Under the pieces are notes generated by a model. It was not told where the DNA came from, ran no database searches, and was given only the letters and a program-made list of their open reading frames with translations. A stretch of 64,000 nucleotides of DNA from the human T2T-CHM13v2.0 reference genome, Homo sapiens, in NCBI RefSeq assembly GCF_009914755.1, contig NC_060932.1; one strand, written 5' to 3'. Made by a program: the position numbers and the translations under genes. This document shows, piece by piece, positions 52,087 to 56,921 of this stretch (positions are counted from its first letter, which is position 1; the number at the start of each line of letters is the position of its first letter).

Positions 52087-52100
52087 AAGAGAGAATTTGG

Positions 52101-52172
52101 GTGCTTGATTTGGCAGCACATGTTCTCACTTTGGCAGCATAATACTAACATTAAAATGATACAGAGAAGTTT
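52101..52172 (+). pseudogene. RNU6: U6 snRNA pseudogene fragments in tandem (U6 nt 1-21, then nt 1-~50)
   Basis: gtgcttgatttggcagcacat matches GTGCTCGCTTCGGCAGCACAT at 18/21. It is followed by gttctcactttggcagcataatactaacattaaaatgatacagagaag, which includes the ACAGAGA box. Confidence 0.9.
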
Positions 52173-52969
52173 GGGTAGCTATTCTTATGTCAGTCAGAAA
52201 AACAGACTTCAAAGCAATAACAGTAAAAAGAAGACCAAAAAAAGCCATTATGTAATGATAAAAGGATTGATCCAAAAAGAAGATATTACAATCCTAAATA
52301 TATATGTACCTAACTCTGGAGCTCCCAGATTCATAAAAAAAGTACTACTAGACCTAAGAAAAGAGACAGACAACAATACAATAATAGTGGGGGACTTCAA
52401 CACTCCACTGACAGCACTAGACAGATTATCAAGACAAATGGTCAACAAAGAAACACTGGTCTTAAACTGCACTCTAGAACAAATGGTGCTAGTAGATATT
52501 TATAAAACATTCTACCAAAGAACTGCAGAATAAACATTCTTCTCAGCAGCACATGGAATATTCTCCAAAATGAACCACAAAATAAGTCTCAATAAATTTT
52601 AAAAATCTAAAATAATCTCAAGTATCTTCTCAGACCACAGTGGAATAAAACTAGAAATCAACTCCTAAAGGAACCCTCAAAACTACAAATACATGGAAAT
52701 TAACCTGATCCTGAACAATTTTTTGGGTTAACAATGAAATCAAGATGGAAATTGAAAAATTTTTCAAAATGAATAATAGTGACTGACACAAGTTATCAAA
52801 ACCTCTGAGATACAGCAAAAGTAGTGCTAAGAGGAAAGTTTATAGTGCTAAGTGTCTACATCACAAGGTATGAAAGATCACAAATTGACAACCTAACATC
52901 ACACCTCAAGGAACTAGAGAAACAAGAAGAAACCAAACCCAAAGCTAGCAGAAGAAAAAAAAATAACAG

Positions 52970-53263
52970 AGCCGGGCACAGTGGCTCACGCCTGTAATCC
53001 CAACACTTACAGAGGCCGAGACAGGTAGATCCAAAAGGTCAGGAGATCGAGACCATCGTGGCTAACACGGTGAAACCCCATCTCTACTAAAAATACAAAA
53101 AATTAGCTGGGCATGGTGGCAGGCGCCTGTAGTCCCAGCTACTTGGGAGGCTGAGGCAGGAGAATGGCATGAACCCAGGAGGCGGAGCTTGCAGTGAGCC
53201 GAGTTCATGTCACTGCACTCCAGCCTGGGCAACAGAGCAAGATTCTGTCTCTAAAAAAAAATA
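52970..53263 (+). mobile_element. AluY-like inserted into the L1PB
   Basis: gatcgagaccatcgtggctaacacggtgaaacc...gaatggcatgaaccc...ggagcttgcagtgagccgag; A-rich TSD aaataaca. Confidence 0.94.
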
Positions 53264-53846
53264 ATAACAAAGATCAGAGCAGAGCTTAATGAAATTGAAA
53301 CAAAAAAATACAAAAGGTCAATGAAATGAAAAGTTAGCTCTTTGAAAAGATTTTTAAAAAATGGTAGACCATTAAGTAGATTAACCAAGAGAAGAAGATT
53401 AAGCTCAATTAAAAATGAAAATAGAAATATTTCAATTGACACCACAGAAATACAAAAGAACATCTGAAACGGCTATGAACACTTCTATGCACACAAACTA
53501 CAAAATCTAGAGGAAATGGAAACCTAGATGAAATGGACAAACTCCTGGAAACATACAATCCTCCTAGCTTGAATCAGGAAGAAATAGAAATCCTGAACAG
53601 ACCAATAACAAGTAGTGAGATTGAATCAGTAATAAAAAACAAATTGCCAAGAAGAAAAACCCAGGGTCAGACAGACTCACAACCAAATTCTAACAGACAT
53701 TCAAAGAAGAACTGATACCAATCCTACTGAAATGATTCTAAAAGATTAAGAAAAAGGGAATCCTCCCTAATTCATCCTATTAAACCAGTATCACCCTAAT
53801 ATCAAAGCCAAGAAAAAATGTAACAGAAAAAGAGGACTACAGACCA

Positions 53847-54138
53847 CCAGGTGCAGTGGCTCACACCTGTAATCCCAACATTTTGGGAGGCCAAGGTGGG
53901 TAGATCACTTGAGCTCAGGAGTCCAAGACCAGCCTGGGCCACATAGGGAGACCCCATCTCTACCAAAAATGTTTTTAAATTAGCCAGGTTTGGTGGCATG
54001 CGTTGTAGTTCCAGCTACTTGGGAGACTGAGGTAGGAGGATTGCTTGAGCCTGAGAGGCAGAAGTTGCAGTGAACCAAGATCACACCACTCCGCTCCAAC
54101 CTGGGTGACACAGTAAGACCCTGTCTCAAAAAAAAAAA
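53847..54138 (+). mobile_element. AluJ-like inserted into the L1PB
   Basis: cacttgagctcaggagtccaagaccagcctggg...ggaggattgcttgagcc; TSD aaaaga..actacagacca on both sides. Confidence 0.93.
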
Positions 54139-56177
54139 CAGAAAAAAGAAAACTACAGACCAATATCTCTGATGAACACAGATACAAAAATCATCAACAA
54201 AGTACTAACTAAATACAACTGCACATCAAAAAGATAATTCAACATGATCAAGTGGGTTTAATTCCAAGGATGCAGGGATAGTTTAACATATATGCAAGTC
54301 ATATGTTATTCATATGTTAGGCATATGTGATTTACCACATAAACAGAATTAAAAACAAAAATCTTAAGATCATCTCAATAGATGCAGAAAAATCATTTGA
54401 TAAAATCCAGCATACCTTTGTGATAAAACCCTCAATAAACTAGGCATAAAATGAACATACCTCAAAATAATAACAGCCATATTTGATAAACCCACAGCCA
54501 ACATTATACTTAATGGGGAAAAGTTGAAAGCATTCCCCCTAAAAATTGGAACAAGACAAGGATGTCCACTTTCACCATTTAGATTCGACATAGTACTGGA
54601 AGTCCTAGCTAGAGCAATCAGGCAAAAGAAAGAAATAAAGGGCATCCAAATAAATAGGAAAAGAGAAAGTCAAACTGTCTCTGTTTGCCAGTGATATGAT
54701 TATGTACCTAGAAAACCCTAAAGACTCCTCCAAAAGACTCCTACATTTGATAAATGAATTCAGTAAAGCCTCTGGTTACAAAATCGATGTACACAAATTG
54801 GTAGCACTGCTATACACAAACAGTGACCAAGCTGAGAATCAAATCAAGTACAATGGCTACAAAAAAATACATACATACATACATAAGATATCTAGGAATA
54901 TACTTAATCAAGGAGGTGAAATATCTCTACAAGAACTACAAAACACTACTGAAATAAAACATAGATGACACAAATGGAAAAATATCCCATGCTTGTTGAT
55001 TGGATGAATCAATATTGTGAAAATGACCATATTGCCCAAAGTGATCTGTAGATTCAGTGCAATTCCTATCAAAATACCAACGTGATTTTTCACAAAATTA
55101 GAAAAAAGCAGTCTTAAAGTTCATATGGAACCAAAAAAAGGGCCTAAATAGCCAAAGCAATCTAAGTAAAAAGAAGAAATCTAGAGGCATCACATCACCC
55201 TACTTCAAGTTATATTATAAGACTATAGTAACCAAAACAGCATGGTATTGGTATAAAAGTAGATACAGAGACCAACTGCACAGAATACAGAAAGCAGAAA
55301 TAAAGTCAAATACTTAGAACCAACTGATTTTCGACAAAGCATACAAAAACATAAATTGGGGAGGGGACACCCTATCTAATAAATGGTCCTGGGAAAACTG
55401 GATAGCCGCATGCAGAAGAATAAATCTAGATCCCTACCTTTCACCGTATACAAAAATCAACTCAAGATGGATTAAAGACTTAAATCTAAGACCTGAAACT
55501 ATAAAAATTCTAAAATAAAACCTAGGAAAAACTCGTCTGTATTTTGGCCTAGGCAAAGAATTTAAACTAAAAAGCTCTACACAGCAGAAGAAATAAACAG
55601 ACAACCCATAGTATGGGAGAAAATATTTGCAAACTATGCATCCAACAAAGGACTAATTTCCAGAATCTTCAAGGAATTCAAATGAATCAGCAAGAAAAAA
55701 ATAAATAATTCCATCAAAAAGTGGGCAAATGACAGGGATAGACACTTCTCAAAAGAACATATACAAATGGCCAACAAACATATGCAAAAATGCTCAATAT
55801 CACTAATCATCAGGGAAGTATTAATTAACACCACACTGAGATACCACATCACCCCCTACAGAATGACCATTATTAAAAAGTCAGAAAACAATAGATGTTG
55901 GCATGGATGTGTTGAAAAGGGAACACTTAAGTACTGCTGGTGGGAATTTAAATTAGTACAACCTTTACGGAAAACAGTTTGGAGATTTCTCAAGGAACTA
56001 AAAGTAGATCTAACCTTTCGATCCAGCAATCCCACTACTGGGTATCTACCCAAAGAAAAAGAAGTCGTTATATCAAAAAGGCACTTGCACACATATGTTT
56101 ATTATAGCACAATTCACAACTGCAAAGATTTGGAAGCAACCTAACTGCCCATCCAATGATGAGTAGATAAAGATCAT

Positions 56178-56212
56178 ACACACACACACACACACACACA
56201 CACACACACACC
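56178..56212. repeat. (CA)n microsatellite
   Basis: Seen directly. Confidence 0.95.
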
Positions 56213-56921
56213 ATGGGATACTACTCAGCCATTAAAAAAAAAAAAATGAAATAATGTCTTTTGTAGCAACTTGGATGGAACTGGAGTTATTATTATACAT
56301 GAAGTAACTGAGGAATGGGAAACCAAAAACCATATCTTCTCACTTATAAGTGGGAGCTAAGTTATGGGTATGGAAATGCATATGAAGCGGTATAATGGAC
56401 ACTGGACAGAAGAGGGGAGGGTGGGAGGGGGTGAGGGATAAAAACCTACAGATTGGGTATAAGGTACGTACCTGGTGATGAATGCACTAAAATCTCAGAC
56501 TTCACCGCTACATAATTCATCCATGTAACCAAAAAGTACTTGGACACCAAACATTAAAATTTAAAACAATTCAAGAAAAAAAGAGAGAACTTGGTCACTA
56601 CACCCATGAGACTGTGGCAGAAACCAGAAATATGAAACAGAACTCTACCAAACCCATCCCACATTGTTTTATTGAAACTATTGTTAATAGTAATTTGTAA
56701 AATAAAAAATCCAGGACAAATGATGAATTAGATATTTGAAATGTTATTTGAAATGTTGAGACAACAGACATAATCCATGAAAGACTCAGGAAATTAAAGG
56801 ATTAGTACTCAAGTTCCATTACCCCTAGTCAAAACAAGCGTGTGTGTGTTTGTGTATATACGTTTTTTACATTTTATATTTAAGCCTCTAACAATTAATG
56901 GACTGCCGTGTTCCAATTTTG

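What the first reader, a model, noticed from the sequence alone, without database searches (positions are those of the whole stretch)
52087..56594. Tandem, 3'-truncated U6-U6-L1 chimeric retrotransposon inside a single TSD
Seen: 14-bp direct repeats aagagagaatttgg (52087-52100) and aagagagaacttgg (56581-56594) enclose U6 nt 1-21, then U6 nt 1-~50, then 4.4 kb of co-oriented L1PB ending in an A-rich tail. The left flank gtt|aaga fits an L1 endonuclease site. Established: U6/L1 chimeras exist, but typically carry one full-length U6 joined at its 3' U-tract (template switching or RtcB-type RNA ligation). Inference: U6 here is cut just after the ACAGAGA box and preceded by a second, shorter 5' piece (roughly the 5' stem-loop). 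This suggests two successive template jumps or ligation of U6 fragments in one event. The two U6 pieces decayed differently at a shared CpG (ttg vs tca), and an AluJ-like element sits inside the L1, so the event is old.
Basis: partly seen in the sequence, partly recalled or inferred. Interest (0 to 1): 0.8.

Follow-up and report, generated by a model that had tools for sequence, protein, structure and literature searches.

The report
Old U6–L1 chimera, doubled U6 start
This is an ancient, already catalogued insertion in which a piece of U6 spliceosomal RNA was copied into the genome together with an L1 element; its one unlisted oddity is an extra 21-base copy of the U6 start, which cannot yet be told apart from an ordinary small duplication.

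Summary
A 14-bp direct repeat (13 of 14 identical; the only 2 matches in the window, 0.10 expected) encloses the following. First comes U6 nt 1-21 (18/21 to a genomic U6 gene). Then comes U6 nt 1 to about 52 (42/52). Then comes a co-oriented, 5'-truncated L1 with endonuclease and RT remnants in order and a short A tail. Two Alus, not one, sit inside the L1.

The locus is already in print. Law & Burns (Cell Genomics 2026, supplementary table) list it as L1PB3 with U6:1-54. They flag the two parts as arriving together in cross-species alignments. Among the U6 rows I read (the paper gives 180 loci), it is one of only three same-sense chimeras whose U6 stops before nt 70.

The 21-nt upstream piece is not annotated there. 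Two exact-motif genome scans found no second tandem U6 start.

Its origin is unresolved. A second template jump at the capped U6 5' end (about 0.45) and a later local tandem duplication (about 0.40) fit almost equally. This same L1 carries two other 17-22-bp tandem duplications. Primate orthologs, not available here, would decide. Interest is modest.

The parts
52083..52086 (+). Left flank ending in TT. With the first bases of the TSD it reads TT/AAGA, an L1 endonuclease-type nick site.
   Evidence: Read directly from the sequence. The consensus TTTT/A is as quoted in Doucet 2015.
52087..52100 (+). Left copy of the 14-bp target-site duplication (AAGAGAGAATTTGG).
   Evidence: one of only 2 matches in the window; 0.10 expected.
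52101..52121 (+). U6 piece A: U6 nt 1-21, which is the 5' stem-loop (nt 1-19) plus 2 nt. It is 18/21 identical to a genomic U6 gene. It differs at C6T, C8A and C11T.
   Evidence: It is not annotated in the published table, which places U6 only at hg38 134218096-134218148.
52122..52172 (+). U6 piece B: U6 nt 1 to about 52 (42/52). It retains the GATACAGAGAAG stretch intact. The joint to L1 falls somewhere between U6 nt 49 and 54 (window 52169-52174).
   Evidence: The published annotation is U6:1-54.
52175..56575 (+). 5'-truncated L1 (L1PB3 in the published RepeatMasker-based table). It starts inside the ORF2 endonuclease domain and is co-oriented with U6. It is interrupted by two Alus and an (AC)17 run.
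   Evidence: family name.
52971..53271 (+). Alu insertion 1 inside the L1 (a later event); boundaries are approximate.
   Evidence: gap between the published L1 fragments.
53846..54152 (+). Alu insertion 2 inside the L1 (a later event). It is flanked by its own repeat of about 20 bp (...actacagacca); boundaries are approximate.
56576..56580 (+). Short remnant of the poly(A) tail. The A run is 56576-56582, and its last two A's are counted in the TSD.
56581..56594 (+). Right copy of the target-site duplication (AAGAGAGAACTTGG).

Best explanation
One ancient L1 (L1PB3) target-primed reverse transcription event produced the whole insert.

Shown: ORF2p nicked at TT/AAGA and primed on the L1 poly(A). 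It copied about 3.8 kb of L1 RNA back to a point inside the ORF2 endonuclease region.

Shown in structure, inferred in mechanism: the growing cDNA then continued on U6 snRNA. It did not start at the U6 3' U-tract, as in the usual U6/L1 chimeras. It started internally, at about nt 52, and ran to the capped 5' end.

Inferred, about even odds: on reaching that 5' end the reverse transcriptase jumped once more. The acceptor was either a U6 fragment ending at nt 21 or an internal site on U6, and the enzyme re-copied nt 21 to 1, the 5' stem-loop. The cDNA was then joined to the second nick 14 bp away, which created the TSD.

Two Alus, two small tandem duplications and CpG decay came later. The element has no present function; it is a fossil of the event.
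For: - Single event: a 14-bp TSD (13/14) abuts U6 nt 1 on the left and the A tail on the right. It gives 2 matches in the window against 0.10 expected.
- The published census flags U6:1-54 and L1PB3 at this locus as found both by proximity and by contemporaneous presence in the multi-species alignment.
- Internal U6 joint: U6 homology ends at nt 49-54, and L1 homology starts at 52173-52175. There is no U6 nt 55-107 and no T tract.
- 6 of the 8 other genomic hits are U6 copies that stop at nt 55-58. This part of U6 is therefore a recurrent stopping or entry point for L1-mediated copying.
- One other catalogued same-sense chimera stops at nt 51 (chr17, L1PB1).
- Second jump: piece B starts, within 1 nt, at the first nucleotide of U6, which is where a run-off reverse transcriptase must leave its template.
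- Pieces A and B share only 1 change (a CpG transition) against 6 private ones. A duplication in the last 30% of the element's life is rejected (P = 0.04).
- The CpG at nt 6-7 decayed on opposite strands in the two pieces, so both existed while it was intact.
- RNA ligation is an unlikely source of the A-B joint: RtcB needs a 5'-OH.
- Double template jumps giving tripartite chimeras inside one TSD are documented in mouse and fungus.
Against: - No feature of the sequence separates a jump at insertion from a tandem duplication of the first 21 bp soon afterwards.
- The same L1 has two other tandem duplications of similar size: 17 bp at 53503-53537, absent from 9 of 9 aligned paralogs, and about 22 bp at 54290-54332, absent from the aligned paralogs.
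- About 20 such arrays (period 12-24, about 2 copies; my count from the table) occur in the 64-kb window. This background process is common.
- With mutations allowed, the repeat unit could equally be nt 2-22, so the coincidence with the RNA 5' end is only good to about 1 nt.
- There are no untemplated bases at the A-B joint.
- Doucet 2015 state that internal initiation during template switching had never been observed for U6/L1 chimeras, although they screened only copies at least 97.5% identical to U6.
- It is a single decayed locus. The Rfam score for piece B is below the gathering cut-off.
Confidence: 0.45

Rival explanations
1. The original insert was a two-part chimera: U6 nt 1 to about 52 fused to L1PB3. 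Later, but early in its life, ordinary replication slippage or repair tandemly duplicated its first 21 bp. The doubled U6 start then says nothing about reverse transcription.
For: - Small two-copy tandem duplications are common here, about 20 arrays of period 12-24 in 64 kb.
- Two of them lie in this very L1, and paralog alignments show they are copy-specific.
- The A-B joint is clean, with no extra bases.
- The duplicated stretch is a hairpin-forming sequence (-9.5 kcal/mol as RNA), which could favour slippage (inference).
- The timing test allows any time in roughly the first 60-70% of the element's life.
Against: - The unit has to begin within about 1 nt of the first base of the insert. At about 0.3 duplications per kb, that is roughly a 1-in-1000 coincidence for a given site (my estimate).
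- A and B differ at 6 of 21 positions. The two copies of the 17-bp duplication match at 88%, and those of the 22-bp one at 80%. The U6 doubling is therefore at least as old as those.
- No shared non-CpG change.
Confidence: 0.4
2. A chimeric RNA, U6(1-21)-U6(1-52)-L1, was made before reverse transcription by RNA cleavage and RtcB-type ligation of fragments. It was then retrotransposed in cis.
For: - RtcB joins U6 to L1 and other RNAs in cells and extracts (Moldovan 2019).
- The authors leave open that 3'-truncated small RNAs cut by an endoribonuclease that leaves a 2',3'-cyclic phosphate could be ligated.
- This could account for the piece B-L1 joint.
Against: - The A-B joint needs a 5'-OH on U6 nt 1. 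With a 5'-triphosphate acceptor, 0 of 26 full-length ligation products were recovered. U6 carries a capped 5' triphosphate (recalled).
- The canonical ligation signature, full-length U6 ending in 4-7 T, is absent.
Confidence: 0.05
3. The template was a variant U6 transcript that already carried the 5' duplication, from a U6 gene or pseudogene with a doubled start. Alternatively, U6 and L1 arrived in separate insertions that only look like one.
For: None found. Considered because transcribed U6 variants exist (recalled).
Against: - Two genome-wide motif scans for two U6 5' motifs 5-25 or 26-55 nt apart gave 25 and 23 matches. Only this locus is a tandem pair of U6 starts; I judged the others from the matched strings, and L014 also from its flanks.
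- Against separate insertions: there is a single TSD with no internal TSD or A tail between U6 and L1, and the published flag marks the two parts as contemporaneous.
Confidence: 0.05

Closest known systems
U6/L1 chimeric pseudogenes (Buzdin 2002/2003 as cited; Doucet 2015, PMC4476161; Moldovan 2019, PMC6789731; census of Law & Burns 2026, PMC13174262)
   Same: U6 lies at the 5' end in sense orientation, directly fused to a 5'-truncated L1. There is one TSD, an endonuclease-type site and an A tail. This very locus is a row of the census.
   Different: The U6 stops at nt 49-54 instead of the 3' U-tract. Among the U6 rows I read, only 3 same-sense entries end before nt 70. A second, 21-nt U6 start precedes it and is not annotated.
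Tripartite chimeric retroelements ascribed to double template switching (Gogvadze et al. 2007, PMC2104539: mouse B2-U6-L1, fungal WEIRD-SINE-MGL; two human cases without recognisable TSD)
   Same: Three co-oriented RNA-derived segments lie inside one TSD, with the LINE at the 3' end.
   Different: Here the two 5' segments are the same RNA species, and both are 3'-truncated. The 'third part' can therefore also be a plain tandem duplication, an ambiguity the published cases do not have.
3'-truncated U6 processed pseudogenes (Doucet 2015, section read)
   Same: U6 is copied from an internal point in a purine-rich single-stranded stretch. Genomic copies stopping at nt 55-58 are frequent (6 of 8 other hits), a few bases from the joint seen here.
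   Different: Those are primed directly on the nicked target and carry no L1. Here an L1 cDNA precedes the U6 copy.

Membership tests
U6/L1 chimeric pseudogene (L1-mobilised) | U6 sequence in sense orientation directly abutting a 5'-truncated L1 | tested here: met
   The joint is within 52169-52175.
U6/L1 chimeric pseudogene (L1-mobilised) | Target-site duplication flanking the whole unit | tested here: met
   14 bp, 13/14 identical; 2 matches in the window against 0.10 expected.
U6/L1 chimeric pseudogene (L1-mobilised) | Insertion at an L1 endonuclease consensus-like site, with a 3' A tail | tested here: met
   TT/AAGA. The A run is only 5-7 bases.
U6/L1 chimeric pseudogene (L1-mobilised) | Canonical form: full-length U6 ending in its T tract at the joint | tested here: not met
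   U6 ends at nt 49-54; the published annotation is U6:1-54. The locus is an atypical member, not the canonical form.
U6/L1 chimeric pseudogene (L1-mobilised) | U6 and L1 present or absent together in orthologs | not testable with these tools
   No primate genomes are held here. The published table flags found_by_msa_prediction = 1 for this row.
Tripartite chimera by double template switch | Three co-oriented RNA-derived segments inside one TSD | tested here: met
   Piece A, piece B and L1 lie between the TSD copies.
Tripartite chimera by double template switch | The extra segment arose at insertion and not by later local duplication | tested here: inconclusive
   1 shared and 6 private changes exclude only a late duplication. 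Comparable tandem duplications exist in the same L1.
RtcB-ligated U6>P-L1 RNA retrocopy | U6 3' end at the U-tract joined to a 5'-OH RNA | tested here: not met
   There is no U6 3' half and no T tract. The A-B joint would need a 5'-OH on the capped U6 nt 1 (for the requirement; the cap is recalled).

The most novel reading that the evidence does not exclude
This would be a true human homotypic tripartite chimera with a clean TSD. During one insertion, L1 ORF2p left its L1 template and entered U6 internally near nt 52. It ran off the capped U6 5' end and jumped again onto a U6 5' stem-loop fragment.

That would be in vivo evidence for two things. First, internal or fragment entry into U6, which was reported as never seen among young U6/L1 chimeras. 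Second, end-to-end template jumping from a capped RNA 5' end, a joint that the RNA-ligation model cannot make.
Probability: 0.45. Interest if true: 0.45.

Novelty: new member of a known kind. Interest (0 to 1): 0.3.

Why it matters
There is an open debate over whether U6/L1 chimeras arise by RNA ligation before reverse transcription or by template switching during it. A joint between the middle of one U6 copy and the capped first base of another cannot be made by RtcB. If it dates from the insertion, it is a natural example of L1 reverse transcriptase jumping templates twice. But it is one old locus, the chimera itself is already catalogued, and a mundane duplication explains the extra 21 bases about equally well. 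Its main value is as a pointer. It suggests looking at the 5' joints of the few truncated-U6 chimeras, and at de novo insertions, for concatenated U6 fragments.

Tried and rejected
- Chance match of U6: rejected. Piece A scores 15 against a maximum of 10 in 4255 window 31-mers (+ strand only). Piece B scores 31 against a maximum of 17 in 2127 60-mers.
- Pre-existing doubled U6 source, or recurrence elsewhere: two exact-motif scans of the T2T genome gave 25 and 23 matches, and only this locus is real. L014 looked promising but is an ordinary U6 pseudogene whose upstream motif lies outside its own TSD. These scans need both 10-nt motifs intact, so decayed cases would be missed.
- A 'jumpy reverse transcription' idea, in which all three small duplications in this L1 date from one sloppy cDNA synthesis: dropped. 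The density in the L1 (2 in 4.5 kb) is not above the window background (about 20 in 64 kb).
- Comparator locus chr17 (U6:2-51 + L1PB1): not retrieved. A motif scan did not list it: 141 matches, of which only 100 were shown and none beyond contig 10.
Stop-to-stop pieces were used instead.
- Phrase searches of the supplement with 'chr8 134' failed because of the colon. A number-only search found the row.
- TRF does not report the A/B repeat at score 30 or above; it is too diverged.
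Full report
**What is there**

The window (T2T chr8:135,284,001-135,348,000, as given by the hub) holds the following between 52087 and 56594.
- A 14-bp direct repeat: AAGAGAGAATTTGG at 52087-52100 and AAGAGAGAACTTGG at 56581-56594. These are the only two matches of AAGAGAGAAYTTGG (up to 1 mismatch) in 64 kb. 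The expectation was 0.10, and 0 of 100 shuffles gave two matches.
- The base before the left copy makes a TT/AAGA site.
- A short A run (56576-56582) precedes the right copy.

**The two U6 pieces**

I took a real U6 gene from the same genome for comparison (L002:1501-1607, 107 nt, one of 48 Rfam U6 hits).
- Piece A, 52101-52121, is 18/21 identical to U6 nt 1-21. None of 4255 other 31-mers of the window's + strand scored as high (15 against a maximum of 10).
- Piece B starts at 52122 and aligns to U6 nt 1-52, with 42 matches, 9 mismatches and 1 gap.
- Rfam calls U6 model positions 1-50 at 21.5 bits (E 0.0017 in a 171-nt search) and 17.5 bits (E 0.95 in 5.7 kb). Both are below the gathering score of 44, as half of a decayed U6 must be.
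- Canonical U6 nt 1-21 folds as the 5' stem-loop (nt 1-19, -9.5 kcal/mol). Piece A is that hairpin plus two bases.

**The L1**
- Forty genomic L1 copies match 52170-52520 at 82-85% identity, and most alignments start at 52175.
- Aligned with 19 of them, the window follows L1 from GTAGCTATTC onward. Upstream, where the paralogs read ...AAGCAGGA, it follows U6 instead. The joint therefore lies between U6 nt 49 and 54.
- Stop-to-stop reading frames give an endonuclease fragment (about 52285-52438) and two RT fragments (about 54500-54864) in L1 order on the + strand. All are below Pfam's curated cut-offs because they are fragments.
- Two Alus interrupt the L1, not one (about 52971-53271 and 53846-54152). 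They were seen as SRP-like Rfam hits and in the sequence. An (AC)17 run lies at 56178-56211.

**It is already catalogued**

Law & Burns (Cell Genomics 2026, PMC13174262; I read sections of the preprint version, passages of the journal version, and the whole of supplementary file mmc2.xlsx) list hg38 chr8:134218149-134222602, L1PB3. The U6 is at chr8:134218096-134218148, aligned to U6:1-54. The row is flagged 1 for proximity and 1 for 'found_by_msa_prediction', meaning contemporaneous arrival in the multi-species alignment.

With the offset that puts U6:1-54 on 52122-52174, the L1 start (52175) and Alu 1 fit. So the published U6 is piece B. Piece A, 21 bp upstream, is not annotated, and the U6 sheet has no TSD columns.

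The paper gives 180 U6/L1 loci. In the rows I read (I did not recount them), the following have U6 ending at or before nt 70.
- Same-sense: 3 rows. They are chr6 (1-67, L1MA1), this locus (1-54) and chr17 (2-51, L1PB1).
- Antisense: 3 rows (27-68, 7-69, 1-44).

The truncated U6 is therefore rare but recorded, and one other case breaks at nearly the same base.

Doucet et al. 2015 (sections 6 and 8 read) wrote that internal initiation during template switching had never been observed for U6/L1 chimeras. They screened only copies at least 97.5% identical to U6, which would exclude this locus.

**Is the doubled U6 start seen elsewhere?**
- A genome-wide scan for two TTYRGCAGCA motifs 5-25 nt apart gave 25 matches, and 26-55 nt apart gave 23.
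- Only this locus is a pair of U6 starts. The rest are CAG-rich chance matches. One (L014) is an ordinary U6 pseudogene whose upstream motif lies outside its own TSD.
- The scans need both motifs intact, so they miss decayed cases.
- A scan for U6 5' halves followed by non-U6 sequence gave 9 matches: this locus, 2 internal deletions, and 6 copies that stop at nt 55-58. The joint here therefore sits next to a recurrent U6 stopping point. This agrees with the clustered truncations in single-stranded purine-rich stretches described by Doucet (the figure was not visible).

**How the extra 21 bases arose**

Relative to U6:
- A differs at nt 6, 8 and 11.
- B differs, within its first 21 nt, at 3, 7, 11, 19 and 21.
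- Only the CpG transition at nt 11 is shared.
- The CpG at 6-7 decayed on opposite strands.

With 1 shared and 6 private changes, a duplication in the last 30% of the element's life is rejected (P = 0.04; without the CpG site, 0.035 for the last 40%). Anything earlier is allowed.

For a second template jump:
- Piece B begins within about 1 nt of U6 nt 1, where a run-off reverse transcriptase leaves its template.
- Tripartite chimeras inside one TSD are known. Examples are mouse B2-U6-L1 and a fungal case; the two human cases then known lacked a recognisable TSD (Gogvadze 2007, passages read).

For a later duplication:
- This L1 has a 17-bp tandem duplication (53503-53537), absent from 9 of 9 aligned paralogs.
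- It also has one of about 22 bp (54290-54332), absent from the aligned paralogs.
- I count about 20 two-copy arrays of period 12-24 in the window. The L1 is not enriched, so I dropped the idea of one 'jumpy' cDNA synthesis.

My rough rates, which are an estimate and not a tool result:
- About 0.001 for a background duplication starting at that very base.
- 0.0002-0.008 for a second jump onto a U6 fragment.

These overlap, so I hold the two readings nearly equal (0.45 against 0.40).

RNA ligation is unlikely for the A-B joint. RtcB needs a 5'-OH acceptor (0 of 26 full-length products with a 5'-triphosphate acceptor; Moldovan 2019, passages read), and U6 nt 1 is capped (recalled). The same paper treats cDNAs of 3'-truncated U6 joined to 5'-truncated L1, with 1-3 nt of microhomology, as reverse-transcriptase template-switch products made in the tube. 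That is the kind of joint seen here, but inside a genomic TSD. A shared G or GG at the B-L1 joint is possible.

**Verdict**

The 'two successive jumps' reading is plausible but not shown. Primate orthologs, which these tools do not hold, would settle it. I could not retrieve the chr17 comparator.

Noticed in passing
window 53503-53537 and 54290-54332: There are two small tandem duplications (17 bp and about 22 bp) inside the L1. Both are absent from paralogous L1 copies (9 of 9 aligned paralogs for the first). They are used in the report as a yardstick for background duplication.
   Followed up: yes
window about 53272-53845: By the published hg38 fragment coordinates, the L1 stretch between the two Alus is 637 bp. 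In this T2T window it is about 574 bp. That implies a difference of roughly 63 bp between the assemblies or in the annotation boundaries.
   Followed up: partly
window 52078-52533 (+): A 151-codon stop-free frame runs from the flank through both U6 pieces into the L1 endonuclease fragment. It is most likely chance; no start codon or other support was sought.
   Followed up: no
G000 contigs 1, 3, 6, 7, 9 (places listed): Six U6 copies stop at nt 55-58. Several are followed at once by A-rich sequence, and two more carry an internal deletion joining about nt 49-54 to about nt 72. This suggests a hot spot around U6 nt 49-58.
   Followed up: partly
L014:1501-1640 (G000 contig 3, about 175,488,850-175,489,000): This is a decayed U6 pseudogene with its own TSD of about 13-15 bp (aaaagtaaatat...), followed directly by an Alu. 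A TTTGGCAGCA motif just upstream of the TSD is a chance look-alike of a U6 start.
   Followed up: partly
many places genome-wide: The string TTAAAATRATACAGGGAAGAGATCTTA recurs dozens of times. It evidently belongs to an interspersed repeat that resembles the U6 ACAGAGA region by chance. The repeat family was not identified.
   Followed up: no
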